From the sequence record NC_028780.1: a stretch of 64,000 bases of DNA. One strand, written 5' to 3'. Positions 2,563-64,000 of the stretch are shown here, piece by piece. Under the pieces are notes generated by a model that searched no databases, had not been told where the DNA came from, and worked only from the letters and a program-made list of their open reading frames with translations. How positions within the stretch are numbered: the stretch's first letter is position 1; every line of letters begins with the position of its first letter. A program made the translations under genes and the position numbers. Source of the DNA: Escherichia phage slur07.

Positions 2563-2591
2563 GTTTACTTTGGTACAGGATATGATATTAT
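2563..2591 (+). promoter_or_regulatory. T4-type early promoter with stem-loop (GTTTAC / TATTAT; GGTACAGG...CCTGTACC inverted repeat)
   Basis: GTTTAC, 17 nt spacer, TATTAT; 8 bp inverted repeat brackets the -10 region. Confidence 0.5.
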
Positions 2592-2627
2592 ATACCTGTA
2601 CCGCAATTAAACATCTTGGAGAATAAA

Positions 2628-55587: not shown

Positions 55588-55610
55588 TATAAATATATTA
55601 TCTATTTATA
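55588..55610. promoter_or_regulatory. divergent late promoters for gene 4 (+, 55588-55595) and gene 53 (-, 55603-55610)
   Basis: TATAAATA on each strand in the 47 nt divergent intergenic region. Confidence 0.6.
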
Positions 55611-58310: not shown

Positions 58311-59007
<697 letters not shown>

Positions 59008-59016
59008 TTTCACAAA

Positions 59017-59051
59017 GTTGTTTACATGGGGTTTTAGTAGTGATACTATTA
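59017..59051 (+). promoter_or_regulatory. early promoter / stem-loop cassette (GTTTAC ... TGATACTAT within GGGTA...TACCC)
   Basis: GTTTAC -35, 17 nt spacer, extended -10; 24 nt identical to copy at 59331. Confidence 0.5.
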
Positions 59052-59067
59052 CCCTATCAAAACAAAT

Positions 59068-59319
59068 GTGAAATTGGAGAACAAAATGAAAACGTATCAA
59101 GAATTTATTGCTGAAACTGCTGATGTAAAAGTTGAGTTTATTTACACTGGCAAGAAAGATAAAATGGGTGAAATGCCTCATGGAGTTCTTCGTGATGCAT
59201 TAGATGATTTCGGTCAACTCGGTGGTGAAGAGTTTGGCGATTACTTTGTTATCTATGGCCCGGCAAAAGTCATTGAGAAATGGGCTGATAAATATAAATC
59301 AATTTTTCGTAAAAAATAA
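59068..59319 (+). CDS. candidate capsid-targeted internal protein (IP-like, 83 aa)
   Basis: N-terminus MKTYQEFIAE matches recalled capsid-targeting sequence ending in an I-A-E gp21-type cleavage site. Confidence 0.7.
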   Translation: MKLENKMKTYQEFIAETADVKVEFIYTGKKDKMGEMPHGVLRDALDDFGQLGGEEFGDYFVIYGPAKVIEKWADKYKSIFRKK

Positions 59320-59320
59320 G

Positions 59321-59355
59321 TTTACTTTTAGATAGGGTAGTGATACTATTACCCT
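59321..59355 (+). promoter_or_regulatory. early promoter / stem-loop cassette, second copy
   Basis: GTTTAC + 17 nt + TGATACTAT; shares GTAGTGATACTATTACCCTATCAA with 59017 cassette. Confidence 0.5.
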
Positions 59356-59377
59356 ATCAACTACCGAGGAGAATAAA

Positions 59378-59563
59378 ATGAAACGTTGTGAATTAATTCG
59401 AAATGTTGCTATTGCAATTTCTGCTTCTGCATTTAGTTTTTCAATGTTTGTTGGATTTATATGCGGATTATTGACTACAGCAGAAAATGTATTTTCACTT
59501 GTAGTAGCATTTTTAATTGGTTTAATTGCTATCGTTATGGATAAAATTTCTAAAGGTGAATAG
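59378..59563 (+). CDS. small hydrophobic membrane protein (61 aa, two predicted TM helices)
   Basis: Strongly hydrophobic; GGAGAATAAAATGAA initiation cassette. Confidence 0.55.
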   Translation: MKRCELIRNVAIAISASAFSFSMFVGFICGLLTTAENVFSLVVAFLIGLIAIVMDKISKGE

Positions 59564-59566
59564 AAT

Positions 59567-59945
59567 GTATAAAGTGTACGCTGATTATCAGGCTAATCCA
59601 TCTGAAAAGCCAGATTGCCAAATTGGATGGGCTCATGATACCCTGCTTGAAGCAGTAGATGCTGCTCAAAAATTAGGATATAGTTATGTAGATATTGTTC
59701 AACCTGGTGGAACAGTTATTACTCTTGAAGAGTTTAATAATATTAAACCAAACTTTTTACTTTTTGCAGGTGATAATTATTATCCTCGTGGTGGATATGC
59801 TGATTTAATCGCGAAAGCCGCTACCGAAGATGAACTCCGTGATATTATCAAAGAAAATGAAAACAAACCGATGTATGGTTCTAATCGCTTTGATTGGTGG
59901 CAAATTGTAAATGCCCACACTCATACTATTGTTGATGAAGGCTGA
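59567..59945 (+). CDS. hypothetical protein (126 aa)
   Basis: ATG 59567 with AAAGGTGAA RBS (track ORF from 59526 overlaps upstream gene). Confidence 0.5.
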
Positions 59946-59947
59946 TA

Positions 59948-60238
59948 ATGATTCTTTATGCTAAAGTATCATCCATTGAAAATGGATATAAATATGATCA
60001 AGACGCGGCTAAAGCCTTGATTGATGATTATGGCATTTTAACATGTTTTGAAGTTGAAAAGGTTTACATTGACCGTTCATCTTCTCAGGTTAAATTAGTG
60101 AAGGAAGACCGTAAATTTAATACAGTAAATTTTGATTTCTTTATTGAAACAGAAAAAGGTCCTCTTGAATATGATATTTTCAAGAATCCTTTGGGTCTTG
60201 AATGTATTCAGAAAACGTATATTAATGCAGCGTGGTGA
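59948..60238 (+). CDS. hypothetical protein (96 aa)
   Basis: ORF in same-strand array. Confidence 0.5.
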   Translation: MILYAKVSSIENGYKYDQDAAKALIDDYGILTCFEVEKVYIDRSSSQVKLVKEDRKFNTVNFDFFIETEKGPLEYDIFKNPLGLECIQKTYINAAW

Positions 60239-60240
60239 AA

Positions 60241-60756
60241 ATGAATATTTGTTTAGGTACTACAATTCCGCAGGGTTACGTAATTGATGTCACTACCTGG
60301 GAAAATGATGGTGACAACTATAAAACTAAAACACTGTTTGGCGTAGAAGAGCATGAAATCTTACAATTCCAATATCTTTTAAAGAAGTTTAAAAGCAGAC
60401 ATTCTAGTACTAAAGCTGAACGTTATTGTGGTAATGGCTTGTTCAGCGAGCAATCGCTTTTTATTTATGAATACTTGGTTGAAGGACTGTTCTCAGAACA
60501 ACTTTATCCAGAATTCATTAAAAAGGTCTTTGACATAGAAGTTGACCTTGGTAATAAATCCGAAGAAGACGAAGAACGTGTATTTGACTTATTCTTTGTG
60601 AATGGTAATAAAGTGCTTGAAGGACTTATTAATATTTTAGGCAGTGCTTCTGAGTATTATGATTATGATTTTTTGCGTGTAGTTGAGAGTGTTAAATACT
60701 CTTATATAGAAAAAGAAATTGTTTTGCCGACCGTTAAAATGTTTAATTTGCTTTAA
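60241..60756 (+). CDS. hypothetical protein (171 aa)
   Basis: ATG 60241; track ORF begins at 60232. Confidence 0.5.
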   Translation: MNICLGTTIPQGYVIDVTTWENDGDNYKTKTLFGVEEHEILQFQYLLKKFKSRHSSTKAERYCGNGLFSEQSLFIYEYLVEGLFSEQLYPEFIKKVFDIEVDLGNKSEEDEERVFDLFFVNGNKVLEGLINILGSASEYYDYDFLRVVESVKYSYIEKEIVLPTVKMFNLL

Positions 60757-60781
60757 GAATTATTTGTTATTATTAATTCAT
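60751..60781 (+). promoter_or_regulatory. candidate MotA-dependent middle promoter for the tRNA cluster (exact repeat of 888-918)
   Basis: 31 nt identical to 888-918, TGCTTTA box and TATTAT -10. Confidence 0.4.
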
Positions 60782-60842
60782 ACCGCACTGATTAATACCC
60801 TCTATCATCAAGGGTTCTTGTTTGAGAGCCTTTGTTAATAAT

Positions 60843-60915
60843 TGGGAATTAGCCAAGTTGGTAAGGCACTGGATTTTGATTCCAGGATGCAAAGGTTCGA
60901 GTCCTTTATTCCCAG
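60843..60915 (+). tRNA. tRNA-Gln (anticodon UUG)
   Basis: Cloverleaf: acceptor TGGGAAT/ATTCCCA, anticodon stem CTGGA/TCCAG with loop TTTTGAT, GGTTCGAGTCC T-loop. Confidence 0.85.
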
Positions 60916-60916
60916 C

Positions 60917-61003
60917 GCGAGAATGGTCAAATTGGTAAAGGCACAGCACTTAAAATGCTGCGGAATGATTTCCTTGTGGGTTCGAGTCCCACTTCTCGCA
61001 CCA
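60917..61003 (+). tRNA. tRNA-Leu (anticodon UAA), long variable arm
   Basis: Acceptor GCGAGAA/TTCTCGC, anticodon loop CTTAAAA, T-loop GGTTCGAGTCC, encoded CCA. Confidence 0.85.
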
Positions 61004-61008
61004 AATTT

Positions 61009-61082
<74 letters not shown>

Positions 61083-61086
61083 ATTT

Positions 61087-61737
61087 ATGACTCGTCGTGA
61101 GACGCTCAGTTCTTTATTAGGGACTGATATGCATTTTTATCTTTATAAAATAACAAATAAAATTAATAATAAAATTTATATTGGTGTGCATTCTACCGAA
61201 AATTTAGATGATGGATATATGGGTTCTGGTAAATTATTAAAAAGAGCCCAAGATAAATATTGTATAGAAAATTTTTCTAAAGAAATATTAGAGTATTTTG
61301 ACGATAAAGAATCTATGCTTGAAGCCGAGAAAAATATTGTCACAGAAGAGTTTTTAAATAGACCAGATGTGTATAATTTAAAACTTGGAGGTGAAGGTGG
61401 ATGGGATCATATAAATAATTATCCTATGACAGATCAGCAACGCGAATTAATTTCATTGGGTGTTAAAAAGGCACATTCTAACGGAAAATTAAAAGGATGG
61501 TCTTCAAATGGATTAATGAAGAATGGCTTTGCTGGTAAAACTCATTCTCAAGAAGCTAAACGTAAAATAGCAAAAGCAAACGAAGCAAAAGTTTCTGCGG
61601 ATGAAAGAAAAAGAAGAATAGAAATTTCTAAATTATATGATTTTTCTAAACGTGGCGAATTGTCTAAATATGCTAAGCATATTGGCGTAAGTCATACTCA
61701 AGCAAAAAGAATTCTAAATCAAATTAACAATATATAA
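61087..61737 (+). CDS. segB: GIY-YIG homing endonuclease embedded in tRNA cluster
   Basis: ORF between tRNA-Gly and tRNA-Ser; FYLYKITNKINNKIYIGVHS GIY-YIG module and DDGYMGSGK shared with segE; start may be ATG 61129. Confidence 0.82.
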   Translation: MTRRETLSSLLGTDMHFYLYKITNKINNKIYIGVHSTENLDDGYMGSGKLLKRAQDKYCIENFSKEILEYFDDKESMLEAEKNIVTEEFLNRPDVYNLKLGGEGGWDHINNYPMTDQQRELISLGVKKAHSNGKLKGWSSNGLMKNGFAGKTHSQEAKRKIAKANEAKVSADERKRRIEISKLYDFSKRGELSKYAKHIGVSHTQAKRILNQINNI

Positions 61738-61743
61738 ATATTT

Positions 61744-61833
61744 GGAGGCGTGGCAGAGTGGTTTAATGCACCGGTCTTGAAAACCGGCAGTCGCTCCGGC
61801 GACTCATAGGTTCAAATCCTATCGCCTCCGCCA
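61744..61833 (+). tRNA. tRNA-Ser (anticodon UGA), long variable arm
   Basis: Acceptor GGAGGCG/CGCCTCC, anticodon stem CCGGT/ACCGG with loop CTTGAAA, T-loop GGTTCAAATCC, CCA. Confidence 0.85.
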
Positions 61834-61839
61834 GTTTTT

Positions 61840-61915
61840 GCTGATTTAGCTCAGTAGGTAGAGCACCTCACTTGTAATGAGGACGTCGGCGGTTCGATTC
61901 CGTCAATCAGCACCA
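61840..61915 (+). tRNA. tRNA-Thr (anticodon UGU)
   Basis: Acceptor GCTGATT/AATCAGC, anticodon loop CTTGTAA, T-loop GGTTCGATTCC, CCA. Confidence 0.85.
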
Positions 61916-61916
61916 A

Positions 61917-61991
61917 GGCCCTGTAGCTGGAAGGTTCAAGCAAGCGACTCATAATCGCCAGATGGTGGTTCAATTCCACCCAGGGCCACCA
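61917..61991 (+). tRNA. tRNA with CAU anticodon (Ile-lysidine type or Met)
   Basis: Acceptor GGCCCTG/CAGGGCC, anticodon loop CTCATAA, T-loop GGTTCAATTCC, CCA. Confidence 0.8.
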
Positions 61992-62003
61992 AATTATGAA
62001 TTA

Positions 62004-62090
62004 GGGGAGTTATCCCGTAGAGGTAGCGGTGTGGACTGTAAATTCATTGTCATTGCGACTCGGGTGGTTCGACTCCACCACTCCCCACCA
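62004..62090 (+). tRNA. tRNA-Tyr (anticodon GUA), long variable arm
   Basis: Acceptor GGGGAGT/ACTCCCC; anticodon loop CTGTAAA; variable arm GTCATTGCGAC resembles bacterial tRNA-Tyr; T-loop GGTTCGACTCC, CCA. Confidence 0.7.
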
Positions 62091-62094
62091 ATTT

Positions 62095-62169
62095 GGATGT
62101 GTAGCTCAATGGCAGAGCGATCGCCTGTTAAGCGATTGGTTATAGGTTCGAATCCTATCACGTCCGCCA
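62095..62169 (+). tRNA. tRNA-Asn (anticodon GUU)
   Basis: Acceptor GGATGTG/CACGTCC, anticodon stem ATCGC/GCGAT with loop CTGTTAA, T-loop GGTTCGAATCC, CCA. Confidence 0.75.
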
Positions 62170-62173
62170 AATA

Positions 62174-62249
62174 CGAGGCATAGCTCAGAAGGAAGAGCAA
62201 GGACCTTCTAAGTCCTGGGTCGTAGGTTCGATCCCTACTGCCTCGACCA
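62174..62249 (+). tRNA. tRNA-Arg (anticodon UCU)
   Basis: Acceptor CGAGGCA/TGCCTCG, anticodon stem AGGAC/GTCCT with loop CTTCTAA, T-loop GGTTCGATCCC, CCA. Confidence 0.85.
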
Positions 62250-62565
62250 GACAAGAAGCCGGGTCGCTACCGGCAAGTCGTCGGACTGATGTTCCCTGTT
62301 TAAGGACTGGCATTAATAAATCTTTATGTTTTGTTAATGCCCCCTTATATCACAGCAGAAACGGCGCACCGAATTATCGATTCGAGGAAATATCTTTGCC
62401 ATAAGCCGAGTAGCGTTTTTGACGGAACGTTCGGATATGGTCGAGATATGGCCTTTTAAAAATATTGAGTAGCGTCAACTACTTAATAACCGGGTTCGAA
62501 TCCCGGCGTTTCGTACAAACACTTGCCTTAGCAGGTGGAACCCCGACAAGGTTGCCGCAAGGCTT
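62250..62565 (+). ncRNA. structured non-coding region after tRNA-Arg: candidate small stable RNAs or degenerate tRNA
   Basis: No credible ORF; tRNA-like T-arm CCGGGTTCGAATCCCGG at ~62490; 8 bp inverted repeat GGCATTAA...TTAATGCC at ~62309-62341; ends at intrinsic terminator. Confidence 0.35.
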
Positions 62566-62593
62566 AGCCCCGACCGAAAGGTTGGGGCTTTTT
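62566..62593 (+). terminator. intrinsic terminator (AGCCCCGACC-GAAA-GGTTGGGGCT plus TTTT)
   Basis: 10 bp stem, tetraloop, T-run; near-identical copy at 63125. Confidence 0.75.
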
Positions 62594-62643
62594 AGTATAA
62601 ATATAGTAGTATATTAAATCCACGAATTAAAACAGGAAATAAG

Positions 62644-63117
62644 ATGAAATCATATGCTCAATTTTTAAATGAAGCGGTGTTAAATGAAGCATCTAGCACC
62701 GAAATTCAAGCTGTCGCAAAAGCAGCCATTGCAGCGGGTAAATATTCCTATAAAGATGCTTCTGACGAATCACGATTCCAATTTGCTCGCGACATGAAAG
62801 CAGAAGGATTTACGGGAAATGCAGTTAGTATGGCCTGGAAAAGTTTAGTTGCTACTGGCGCTGCTTTTGCAAAGGCTTCGGGTAAACCTGCTCCTAAAGC
62901 AGATCCTAAAGTCACACAAGAGAAAAATATCGTTAAAGGAATTATCTCCAGATATGAAGCTATCCTTAAAGAGCTTTTAGTAATCAAAACTGAAGGTCAA
63001 AAGTTAGCTCGTGCTTATAGTTTCAAAGATAATCCACATGCTCATGACCTAGAGTATGTTGAAGACATCCAAAAAATTATTAAAGACCGCATTTGGTCTG
63101 CTAAACAAATCAAATAA
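62644..63117 (+). CDS. hypothetical protein with capsid-targeting-like N-terminus (157 aa)
   Basis: N-terminus MKSYAQFLNEAVLNEA resembles the MKTYQEFIAE internal-protein leader; Ala/Lys-rich; flanked by twin terminators. Confidence 0.6.
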   Translation: MKSYAQFLNEAVLNEASSTEIQAVAKAAIAAGKYSYKDASDESRFQFARDMKAEGFTGNAVSMAWKSLVATGAAFAKASGKPAPKADPKVTQEKNIVKGIISRYEAILKELLVIKTEGQKLARAYSFKDNPHAHDLEYVEDIQKIIKDRIWSAKQIK

Positions 63118-63124
63118 CATTCTT

Positions 63125-63152
63125 AGCCCCGACCAAAAGGTTGGGGCTTTTT
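63125..63152 (+). terminator. intrinsic terminator, second copy (loop AAAA)
   Basis: Same stem as 62566-62593, T-run. Confidence 0.75.
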
Positions 63153-63287
63153 GGTATCTAGGCCTTTCCGGGCCTCTCTAGGCATCATTTAGTTTATACC
63201 CTTTATAATATATTATCCTACCTTTTAATTGCCCCTCCTGACCCTAGAATTCCCTAAAACTTTTTAAAAATTTTTTCACAAAACTGT

Positions 63288-63322
63288 TTACATCCCTGTT
63301 CTTCCATGGTACTATACAACTA
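63288..63322 (+). promoter_or_regulatory. T4-type early promoter (GTTTAC ... TGGTACTAT)
   Basis: GTTTAC, 17 nt spacer, extended -10. Confidence 0.45.
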
Positions 63323-63358
63323 TCAACTACTGATACAGAAAAACAACTTGGAGAATGA

Positions 63359-63623
63359 AATGGATAATTACGGCGAACTGTTCAACTTCTTTATGAAATG
63401 CGTTTCAGAAGATTTCGGTCGTACAGTGAATGATATTAAAGTTATCGGTCCTGACCATCCGATGTTTGAAACCTACGCAGTAATGGGTAATGAAGATGGT
63501 CAGTGGTATACTGTAAAAGTTGTGATTAATATGTTCACAGCTGAAAGTTATGTTAAACTGTCTTCTAAAGTTTACCACGATAACGACGAAATCGCAGAAG
63601 AATATTTCAATAATATGAAATAA
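63359..63623 (+). CDS. hypothetical early protein (88 aa)
   Basis: ATG 63359 with GGAGAATGAAATGG initiation context; track ORF from 63306 is likely over-extended. Confidence 0.55.
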
Positions 63624-63656
63624 GTTTACACAGGCTCATGATTGAGATATTATGAG
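63624..63656 (+). promoter_or_regulatory. early promoter within stem-loop (GTTTAC; GGCTCAT...ATGAGCC around TATTAT)
   Basis: GTTTAC, 17 nt, ATATTAT; 7 bp inverted repeat enclosing the -10. Confidence 0.45.
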
Positions 63657-63678
63657 CCTGTAACTTGAGGAGAACATT

Positions 63679-64000
63679 ATGAAACGTAACTTTAGTAAAG
63701 CTTTTTGTAATCGAAATTATTATCCCGAAGAGCTTTTTGAATCTAAGGAATTTAAAGAGTTTAACGAACGTTCTCAAAACATGCCTGTACAGTGGGTATT
63801 GGATTATGCTAACCGTATCTTTGAAGGTGTACGTTTCGTTGGCCCTGATGATGAAGCTCCTTATTTTAAAAAGGCTTGGGAACTTGCTAACCAAGCATAT
63901 ATCAATGCTTTAGAATCTTCTAAAGGCACTGACGATGATTTTACTTTATTGGCTATCAATGATGCCGTTATCGAGGCCATTGACGTCTTTATCGATGAGA
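63679..64000 (+). CDS. hypothetical early protein, 3' end beyond window
   Basis: ATG 63679 with GAGGAG RBS; frame open to window end (MKRNFSKAFCNRNYYPEELFESKEF...). Confidence 0.5.
   Translation, partial: MKRNFSKAFCNRNYYPEELFESKEFKEFNERSQNMPVQWVLDYANRIFEGVRFVGPDDEAPYFKKAWELANQAYINALESSKGTDDDFTLLAINDAVIEAIDVFIDE

What the first reader, a model, noticed from the sequence alone, without database searches (positions are those of the whole stretch)
59014..59368. Candidate capsid-targeted internal protein in a cassette bracketed by duplicated promoter/stem-loop modules
The ORF at 59068-59319 begins MKTYQEFIAE, matching the recalled capsid-targeting leader that sends T4 internal proteins into the head, ending in an I-A-E prohead-protease cleavage site. 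It is flanked by two copies of an early-promoter/stem-loop module sharing an exact 24 nt core (GTAGTGATACTATTACCCTATCAA). The arrangement fits a swappable cassette carrying an injected effector; T4 internal protein I is a known anti-restriction factor, so the processed ~73 aa product is a candidate inhibitor of a host defence nuclease.
Basis: partly seen in the sequence, partly recalled or inferred. Interest (0 to 1): 0.6.

Follow-up and report, generated by a model that had tools for sequence, protein, structure and literature searches.

The report
T4-type internal protein Ip6 cassette
This is the already-named ip6 gene of a T4-like phage, a small protein predicted to be packed into the phage head and injected with the DNA, sitting in the classic swappable "internal protein" slot between repeated promoter/hairpin modules; the arrangement is known, and only Ip6's target is still open.

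Summary
A 77-aa ORF (ATG 59086, stop 59319) starts MKTYQEFIAE, which matches the first 10 residues of T4 IPII and IPIII exactly. It is bracketed by two promoter/hairpin modules that share an exact 24-nt core 300 bp apart. The window is a Tequatrovirus, and the ORF lies in the ipI slot between 57B and trna.4. Its protein is 100% identical to that of phage RB18, occurs in 249 phage records, and is annotated Ip6/ipVI "internal head protein". Across 11 related phages the slot holds one to three unrelated ORFs. All carry the MKT[FY][KQ]EF-type leader, N cassettes come with N+1 modules, and indels are exactly one cassette with junctions inside the modules. All of this is published (Repoila 1994; Arbiol 2010; the 1980s T4 record X03016). 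Packaging, cleavage, injection and an anti-restriction role are inferred, not shown. T4 Ip1, Ip2 and Ip3 each block a distinct GmrSD nuclease. No target for Ip6 turned up in the papers searched. Verdict: real, correctly interpreted, already known, low novelty.

The parts
58552..59007 (+). Gene 57B, the conserved left flank of the slot. It is an Acb1-type anti-CBASS phosphodiesterase.
   Evidence: Pfam PF23474 Acb1 at E 2.6e-60. Same position as T4 57B.
58998..59019 (+). AT-rich upstream part of the first module (TTTAAAATAATTTCACAAAGTT). It overlaps the 57B stop codon and is a second homology patch for recombination.
   Evidence: 83% repeat with 63264-63293 (D7). The same stretch follows Ip5 in e11/2 and T6. 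The Ip5 indel between e11/2 and the window has 17 nt of exact junction homology here.
59020..59060 (+). Upstream promoter/hairpin module: -35 TTTACA 59021-26, TGn 59041-43, -10 TACTAT 59044-49. The 24-nt core is 59037-59060.
   Evidence: Homologous to promoter PE2 plus 'pot. stem-loop' of T4 record X03016. Fits the PST/T4 PeSL promoter consensus TTTACW N17 TAYWAT (PMC4122927).
59026..59057 (+). Hairpin 1. It spans the promoter spacer and -10 and is not followed by a U tract.
   Evidence: -14.3 kcal/mol, z -3.6. Covariation across 14 modules.
59076..59079 (+). Shine-Dalgarno GGAG, 6 nt before the ATG.
   Evidence: Sequence.
59086..59319 (+). ip6 coding sequence, 77 aa plus stop.
   Evidence: phrog_8111 at E 3.9e-51. 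100% identical to the RB18 and PhiZZ23 proteins and present in 249 phage records.
59086..59115 (+). Capsid-targeting leader MKTYQEFIAE, with the gp21 cleavage motif I8-A9-E10.
   Evidence: Identical to residues 1-10 of T4 IPII and IPIII. CTS sufficiency and the L/I-x-E rule come from PMC9026906.
59320..59360 (+). Downstream promoter/hairpin module, starting at the base after the ip6 stop codon: -35 TTTACT 59321-26, -10 TACTAT 59344-49. The 24-nt core is 59337-59360. It drives trna.4.
   Evidence: Homologous to T4 PE1 plus 'pot. stem-loop pot. IpI terminator'.
59331..59358 (+). Hairpin 2: a 12-bp stem with a 4-nt loop and no U tract.
   Evidence: -16.4 kcal/mol, z -6.2.
59378..59563 (+). trna.4 homologue (61-aa membrane protein), the conserved right flank of the slot.
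   Evidence: phrog_1692 at E 6e-35. Same position as T4 trna.4.

Best explanation
The feature is the ip6 gene of a Tequatrovirus, one interchangeable cassette in the ipI locus between 57B and trna.4.

Shown here:
- The protein carries the exact 10-residue capsid-targeting sequence of T4 IPII and IPIII, ending in the I-x-E motif cut by the prohead protease gp21.
- It occupies the ipI slot.
- It is flanked by T4-type early promoter/hairpin modules sharing 24 exact bases 300 bp apart.
- In related phages whole cassettes of 286-330 bp are present or absent, with junctions inside these modules.

Inferred:
- Ip6 is made early from its own promoter and late by read-through from upstream late promoters.
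- Its leader docks it to the prohead core.
- gp21 cuts after Glu10.
- The 67-aa, near-neutral, ferredoxin-like product stays in the head and is injected with the DNA.
- There it most likely binds and blocks a modification-dependent (Type IV, GmrSD-family) restriction nuclease other than the three already assigned to Ip1, Ip2 and Ip3.

The modules serve as promoters for each cassette. They probably attenuate or process read-through RNA. They also provide short homology patches through which the phage recombination machinery adds, deletes or swaps cassettes without disturbing neighbouring genes.

Confidence by step: identity and locus about 0.95; packaging and processing about 0.8; Type IV nuclease inhibitor about 0.45.
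For: Leader identity to IPII and IPIII. In IPIII these first 10 residues were the only ones required for incorporation into the head and carry foreign proteins in; residues 4 and 7 set targeting and residues 8 and 10 set processing (PMC9026906).

Same slot as T4 ipI. Family and annotation: phrog_8111, Ip6/ipVI.

The leader is kept (MKTYQEF[IM][AT]E) in homologues only 35-46% identical from other genera, always in this slot. This argues for selection on the leader itself.

Slot survey: 1-3 cassettes, N+1 modules, at least 6 unrelated mature proteins. Indels are exactly one cassette with 14-44 nt of junction homology. MLF4 and Shfl2 carry chimeric modules, the predicted product of an Ip6 deletion within the core.

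Hairpins fold well and covary: 8 of 12 pairs change on both sides, and 0 of 500 shuffles reach the observed score.

Late-promoter motifs TATAAATA lie upstream at 55588 and 57947 on the + strand, and the hairpins lack U tracts, so late read-through is plausible.

Functional precedent: Ip1, Ip2 and Ip3 each inhibit one GmrSD variant, and the authors propose that all proteins of the two Ip loci do likewise (PMC12373910).
Against: No virion proteomics, cleavage data or phenotype for Ip6 was found in the papers searched.

T6 carries an 83%-identical Ip6 and is still restricted by GmrSD-ECOR21 and GmrSD-ECOR17. Those two enzymes are therefore not its targets.

The hairpins have no U tract, so any terminator function is unproven.
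Confidence: 0.6

Rival explanations
1. Ip6 is packaged and injected (or made early) but acts on something other than a Type IV restriction nuclease. The target could be another immunity system or a host takeover function.
For: Mature Ip6 is near-neutral, unlike the basic Ip1, Ip2, Ip3 and Ip5. Its predicted ferredoxin-like fold is unrelated to the described IPI* fold. The T6 allele does not protect against two tested GmrSD types. The neighbouring gene 57B is an anti-CBASS enzyme, so the region is not devoted to restriction alone. Alt, another head-delivered protein, is an ADP-ribosyltransferase.
Against: All three Ips with known targets hit GmrSD-family enzymes despite being unrelated in sequence. 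GmrSD diversity is large enough to hold further subtypes.
Confidence: 0.25
2. Ip6 is a generic internal head protein that fills space or neutralises charge on packaged DNA, with no specific host target.
For: T4 IPs were first described as abundant (about 300 copies each) basic proteins that bind DNA at low salt (PMC9026906).
Against: Mature Ip6 carries no net positive charge: 12 K+R against 12 D+E, pI 6.5. The gene is dispensable and is replaced by unrelated proteins in many relatives. That pattern fits an arms-race accessory gene, not a structural need.
Confidence: 0.08
3. The protein is not packaged. The leader codons are kept only because they belong to the recombining module, and Ip6 works purely as an early cytoplasmic protein.
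For: The gene has its own strong early promoter and no late promoter of its own. IPIII lacking its CTS still works when expressed in the host (PMC9391042).
Against: Junction homologies of the observed indels lie in the promoter/hairpin and the AT-rich upstream part, not in the leader codons. The leader is conserved at protein level in homologues 35-46% identical whose flanking DNA has diverged. These first 10 residues alone carried foreign proteins into T4 heads.
Confidence: 0.05
4. The two modules are just ordinary early promoters. Their similarity reflects promoter consensus and the hairpins are incidental, so no cassette mechanism exists.
For: The scan for sigma-70-like sites finds about as many as shuffled sequence does (30 against 23.8 +/- 4.4). 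T4 early promoters share an extended consensus.
Against: The core is 24/24 identical, against 61-63% identity to other early-promoter modules in the same window. Hairpins persist with different stem sequences and compensatory changes. Indels between phages end inside the modules.
Confidence: 0.05

Closest known systems
Ip6 / ipVI of T-even phages (T6, RB18, vB_EcoM_VR7/VR25, Yersinia phage PST, JK1)
   Same: It is the same gene. The protein is 100% identical to those of RB18 and PhiZZ23 and 77-95% identical to most other records. It has the same slot and the same flanking modules. The BFVD model of VR7 Ip6 superposes at TM 0.97.
   Different: Nothing of substance. This window has Ip6 alone in the slot, whereas T6 and e11/2 have Ip5 plus Ip6.
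T4 internal protein I (ipI; IPI*), inhibitor of GmrSD from E. coli CT596
   Same: Identical genomic slot (57B | ip | trna.4). The same promoter/hairpin modules lie on both sides. It has an N-terminal leader ending in I-x-E and a small mature product.
   Different: The mature sequences are unrelated, with no BLASTP alignment. The IPI leader is MKTFKEF...ITE (19 aa) against MKTYQEFIAE (10 aa). Mature pI is 9.0 against 6.5. The described IPI* fold is two beta sheets flanked by terminal helices, against a predicted beta-alpha-beta-beta-alpha-beta fold. The target of Ip6 is unknown.
T4 IPII and IPIII, inhibitors of GmrSD-ECOR21 and GmrSD-ECOR17
   Same: Identical 10-residue capsid-targeting sequence MKTYQEFIAE. 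Both are injected accessory proteins.
   Different: They are encoded in the other Ip locus (denV-e). Their mature parts are unrelated. T6, which has an Ip6, is still restricted by both of those enzymes.
PeSL (promoter-early stem-loop) cassettes of RB49/phi1 and PST/T4 (Arbiol 2010; Comeau 2014)
   Same: An early promoter plus a stem-loop that overlaps the spacer and -10. The unit runs from the stop codon of the upstream gene to the SD and ATG of the next. It flanks variable small ORFs, and indels are explained by recombination between neighbouring units.
   Different: Arbiol et al. call the IP-locus elements analogues, not homologues, of RB49 PeSLs. They are built on the T4 early-promoter type, with AT-richer stems and no polyG/polyC. 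Terminator activity and mini-circles were shown for RB49/phi1, not for this locus.

Membership tests
T4-type internal proteins (CTS-bearing, gp21-processed, injected) | N-terminal capsid-targeting sequence of the MKTYQEFIAE / MKTFKEF type | tested here: met
   Residues 1-10 are identical to T4 IPII and IPIII. Y4 and F7 (targeting) and I8 and E10 (processing) are all present.
T4-type internal proteins (CTS-bearing, gp21-processed, injected) | gp21 cleavage motif L/I-x-E at the end of the leader | tested here: met
   I8-A9-E10 is the only L/I-x-E motif in the protein.
T4-type internal proteins (CTS-bearing, gp21-processed, injected) | Encoded in one of the two variable Ip loci (57B-trna.4 or denV-e) | tested here: met
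   Lies between 57B and trna.4, exactly where T4 ipI lies.
T4-type internal proteins (CTS-bearing, gp21-processed, injected) | Physically present in the mature head in processed form | not testable with these tools
   Needs virion mass spectrometry. No such data were found in the literature searches.
T4-type internal proteins (CTS-bearing, gp21-processed, injected) | Injected into the host with the DNA | not testable with these tools
   Experimental only.
T4-type internal proteins (CTS-bearing, gp21-processed, injected) | Non-essential and variably present among close relatives | tested here: met
   Present in 249 records and absent from T4, fPS-2, Shfl2, MLF4, TB004 and others whose flanks are conserved.
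Ip6 sequence family (phrog_8111) | Full-length sequence match to the family profile | tested here: met
   E 3.9e-51 over residues 1-77 of a 77-position profile. 11 clusters in 5.8 billion proteins, all from T4-like phages. No remote relatives in 1.84 billion representatives.
IPI* family (T4 Ip1 GmrSD inhibitor) | Homology of the mature domain to IPI* | tested here: not met
Inhibitors of Type IV (GmrSD) restriction enzymes | Relieves restriction by a defined GmrSD enzyme | not testable with these tools
   Experimental. Indirect: T6, which carries an Ip6, is still restricted by GmrSD-ECOR21 and GmrSD-ECOR17.
PeSL-type regulatory cassettes | Early promoter fitting TTTACW N17 TAYWAT (T4/PST type) between the upstream stop codon and the downstream SD/ATG | tested here: met
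   TTTACA N17 TACTAT and TTTACT N17 TACTAT, both with TGn.
PeSL-type regulatory cassettes | Stable stem-loop within or overlapping the promoter | tested here: met
   Folding at z -3.6 and -6.2. Covariation in 8 of 12 pairs.
PeSL-type regulatory cassettes | Stem-loop terminates or attenuates upstream transcription | tested here: inconclusive
   No U tract follows either hairpin, and the terminator scan does not call them. The old T4 annotation says only 'pot. IpI terminator'.
PeSL-type regulatory cassettes | Insertions, deletions and replacements between relatives have junctions in the modules | tested here: met
   One-cassette indels of 286-330 bp with 14-44 nt of exact junction homology. Chimeric modules in MLF4 and Shfl2.
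PeSL-type regulatory cassettes | Formation of excised mini-circles | not testable with these tools
   Requires inverse PCR on infected cells, as was done for RB49/phi1.

The most novel reading that the evidence does not exclude
Ip6 differs from the basic Ip1, Ip2 and Ip3: it is near-neutral, has a predicted ferredoxin-like fold, and has no relatives outside T4-like phages. It could be an injected inhibitor of an immunity system that is not a GmrSD-type Type IV nuclease. That would show that the head-delivery route and the ipI cassette slot serve counter-defence in general, not only anti-restriction.
Probability: 0.2. Interest if true: 0.5.

Novelty: already known. Interest (0 to 1): 0.2.

Why it matters
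The locus is a clear natural example of a plug-in site for injected counter-defence proteins. Each cassette brings its own promoter, its own head-targeting tag and its own recombination handles. That architecture has been known since 1994. What remains open, and is under active study since Ip2 and Ip3 were assigned to GmrSD subtypes in 2025, is which host defence each of the many other Ips blocks. Ip6 is one of the commonest unassigned ones (249 phage records, including T6), so finding its target would help explain the host range of therapeutic T4-like phages. This window adds no new information to that question beyond a confident structure model and the exclusion of sequence or fold similarity to known inhibitors.

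Tried and rejected
- Family libraries: Pfam, NCBIfam and PADLOC scans of Ip6 gave nothing.
- PDB sequence search gave only chance-level hits to DyP peroxidases, best E 0.067.
- Exhaustive HMMER with mature Ip6 against 1.84 billion representatives gave two Ip6 relatives plus one 428-aa protein. On inspection that protein is a low-complexity repeat, and I rejected it as spurious.
- Rfam found only tRNAs in 58900-64000.
- The cassette has no match in 5,426 complete E. coli genomes, so I found no sign of a bacterial origin.
- Repoila 1994 and Bair 2007 could not be read and are cited only through other papers.
- I considered the upstream GTG at 59068 as the start, as some records annotate it (P0001, 83 aa). 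I rejected it because it has no SD, is too close to the transcript start, and would bury the leader.
- I considered the minus-strand ORF 58999-59181 (60 aa). I dismissed it because it overlaps the promoter and the ip6 5' end and no relative annotates it.

Full report
**What is in the sequence**

The 24-nt string GTAGTGATACTATTACCCTATCAA occurs exactly twice in the window, at 59037 and 59337 on the + strand. No occurrence is expected by chance. The similarity extends to a 41-nt module at 59020-59060 and 59320-59360, 80% identical.

Each module reads as a T4-type early promoter:
- -35 TTTACA (59021-26) or TTTACT (59321-26);
- a 17-nt spacer;
- an extended -10, TGn-TACTAT.

Each module also contains a hairpin that covers the spacer and the -10. 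The first is 59026-59057, -14.3 kcal/mol, z -3.6. The second is 59331-59358, -16.4 kcal/mol, z -6.2. Neither hairpin is followed by a U tract.

Between the modules lies one ORF. The mechanical ORF list starts it at GTG 59068. The sequence MKTYQEFIAE begins at ATG 59086, which has GGAG 6 nt upstream. The protein is therefore 77 aa. The next module's -35 begins at the base after the stop codon.

**Where the window comes from and what the ORF is**

The gene order on the + strand is 4, 2, 3, 1, 57A, 57B, this ORF, trna.4, trna.3, trna.2, then the tRNA cluster. This is the T4 order, with the ORF exactly where T4 has ipI. The region is 99.4% identical to phages KIT03, PhiZZ23 and teqhal.

The protein is 100% identical to that of RB18. 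It occurs in 249 phage records and is annotated 'ip6', 'ipVI' or 'internal head/virion protein'. The T6 record labels the two genes in this slot 'Ip5 ... replaces ipI' and 'Ip6'. The protein matches phrog_8111 'internal virion protein' end to end at E 3.9e-51.

The family is small and confined to phages. There are 11 clusters among 5.8 billion proteins. A search of 1.84 billion representatives found no credible remote relative.

**The leader**

Translating the T4 genes shows that MKTYQEFIAE is the exact N-terminus of IPII and IPIII. IPI starts MKTFKEFTSTTTPVSTITE|A.

According to the review of Black's work (PMC9026906):
- residues 4 and 7 matter for targeting;
- residues 8 and 10 matter for processing;
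- gp21 cuts after Glu in L/I-x-E.

Ip6 has all of these, and I8-A9-E10 is its only such motif. Cleavage would leave 67 aa (7.7 kDa, pI 6.5).

Homologues only 35-46% identical keep MKTYQEF[IM][AT]E and the same slot. They come from a Gaprivervirus, an unclassified Yersinia phage and a Karamvirus. This argues that the leader is under selection as a peptide.

**The cassette behaviour**

I extracted the 57B-to-trna.4 interval from the window and ten relatives.
- The interval holds one, two or three small ORFs. Five occur in Yersinia phage P8 and phage MN01.
- Every ORF starts MKT[FY][KQ]EF or a close variant.
- N ORFs come with N+1 promoter/hairpin modules.
- At least six mature sequences occur: IpI, Ip5, Ip6, and proteins of 90, 102 and 74 aa. 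They have no detectable similarity to one another.

Pairwise comparison shows that differences between phages are whole cassettes of 286-330 bp. Their ends fall in the modules, with 14-44 nt of exact homology at the junction.

The Ip6 indel between e11/2 and MLF4 or Shfl2 is 300 bp, the same as the spacing of the 24-nt cores in this window. MLF4 and Shfl2 carry chimeric modules: the 5' half matches the Ip6-upstream module and the 3' half matches the trna.4 leader. This is the product expected from a crossover inside the core.

The hairpin is conserved as a structure rather than as a sequence. Across 14 modules, 8 of 12 pairs show changes on both sides, no shuffle out of 500 reaches the observed covariation score, and slid registers score lower. 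Other modules in the window (2563, 63624) have completely different stems.

**How it most likely works**

Shown: gene identity, leader, locus, module anatomy, and cassette-sized indels.

Inferred:
- Ip6 is expressed early from its own promoter.
- Late transcription reads through from TATAAATA motifs at 55588 and 57947, across hairpins that lack U tracts.
- The CTS docks Ip6 onto the prohead core.
- gp21 cleaves after Glu10.
- The mature protein is retained in the head and injected.

For function, the best precedent is recent. Ip1, Ip2 and Ip3 are unrelated in sequence, yet each inhibits one GmrSD-type Type IV restriction enzyme with no cross-protection. The authors suggest that all proteins of the two Ip loci do the same (PMC12373910). 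IPIII is required on ECOR17 and works without its CTS when expressed in the host (PMC9391042).

I therefore rank 'inhibitor of a further Type IV nuclease subtype' first, at roughly 0.45. T6 carries an 83%-identical Ip6 and is still restricted by GmrSD-ECOR21 and GmrSD-ECOR17, so those two are not the target.

**What the protein looks like**

**Comparison with what is known, and novelty**

Everything structural here has been published.
- T4 record X03016 from the 1980s annotates promoter PE2 plus a 'pot. stem-loop' upstream of ipI. Downstream it annotates a 'pot. stem-loop pot. IpI terminator' plus PE1.
- Repoila et al. 1994 described the polymorphic IP loci with a conserved CTS (cited).
- Arbiol et al. 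[quoted passage not shown] They add that more than 30 IP variants are known, and that these elements may drive plasticity in the IP loci.
- Comeau et al. 2014 give the T4/PST PeSL promoter consensus, which these modules fit.

The remaining unknown is Ip6's target, for which I found no report.

**Side observations**

The most interesting is a 157-aa ORF at 62644-63117.
- It starts MKSYAQFLNE|A. Tyr4, Phe7, Leu8 and Glu10 are all in place.
- A perfect late-promoter motif lies at 62596-62603.
- It is bracketed by two 94%-identical copies of an intrinsic terminator (62563-62598 and 63122-63157).
- T4 has one copy of that terminator and no such ORF.
- Homologues in Mosigvirus, Jiaodavirus and a Yersinia phage keep the leader.
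- All 25 sampled records of the 510 hit that carry an annotation call it 'hypothetical protein' or 'Phage protein'.
- It lies outside the two classical IP loci.
- Its model is helical, of moderate confidence, and has no fold match.

It looks like an unannotated head-targeted protein and deserves the same proteomics test.

Noticed in passing
window 62563-63157 (ORF 62644-63117, + strand): A 157-aa ORF starts MKSYAQFLNE|A, a capsid-targeting-like leader with Tyr4, Phe7, Leu8 and Glu10 in place. A T4 late-promoter motif TATAAATA lies at 62596-62603. The ORF is bracketed by two 94%-identical 36-nt copies of an intrinsic terminator; T4 has one copy and no ORF. The leader is conserved in Mosigvirus, Jiaodavirus and Yersinia-phage homologues. 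All 25 sampled records of the 510 hit that carry an annotation call it 'hypothetical protein' or 'Phage protein'. It is a candidate unrecognised internal protein outside the two classical Ip loci.
   Followed up: partly
window 61087-61737 (+ strand): A GIY-YIG homing-endonuclease ORF has an N-terminal 115 aa that is 83% identical to T4 SegB, but its C-terminal ~100 aa is unrelated. It sits between tRNA-Gly and tRNA-Ser, where JK1, e11/2 and T4 carry tRNA-Pro, and the window has no tRNA-Pro. T4 segB lies at a different site, between tRNA-Ile and tRNA-Arg.
   Followed up: partly
window 58552-59007 (+ strand): Gene 57B, the left neighbour of the cassette, is an Acb1 anti-CBASS phosphodiesterase (Pfam PF23474, E 2.6e-60). 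RefSeq records and PHROGs still label it 'RNA ligase'. The ip slot thus sits next to another counter-defence gene.
   Followed up: partly
L013 (Yersinia phage vB_YenM_P8) 580-2035; L017 (phage MN01) 280-1734: In these phages the same slot holds five consecutive leader-bearing ORFs, including Ip5- and Ip6-like ones. The first three are separated by only 8 nt with no promoter module between them. The later ones are separated by diverged promoter/hairpin modules whose stems differ but still pair.
   Followed up: partly
window 2563-2607 and 63624-63669 (+ strand): Two further early-promoter modules have strong hairpins over the spacer and -10 (-16.1 and -19.9 kcal/mol), with stem sequences unrelated to the ip6 modules. 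The module at 63286 has the promoter but no hairpin.
   Followed up: partly
L014 (Enterobacter phage KMB19) 1262-1504: In this Karamvirus the 57B/Acb1 gene upstream of the Ip6 homologue is annotated as only 80 aa, starts at GTG, and corresponds to the C-terminal half of 57B. It may be a truncated or mis-called gene.
   Followed up: no
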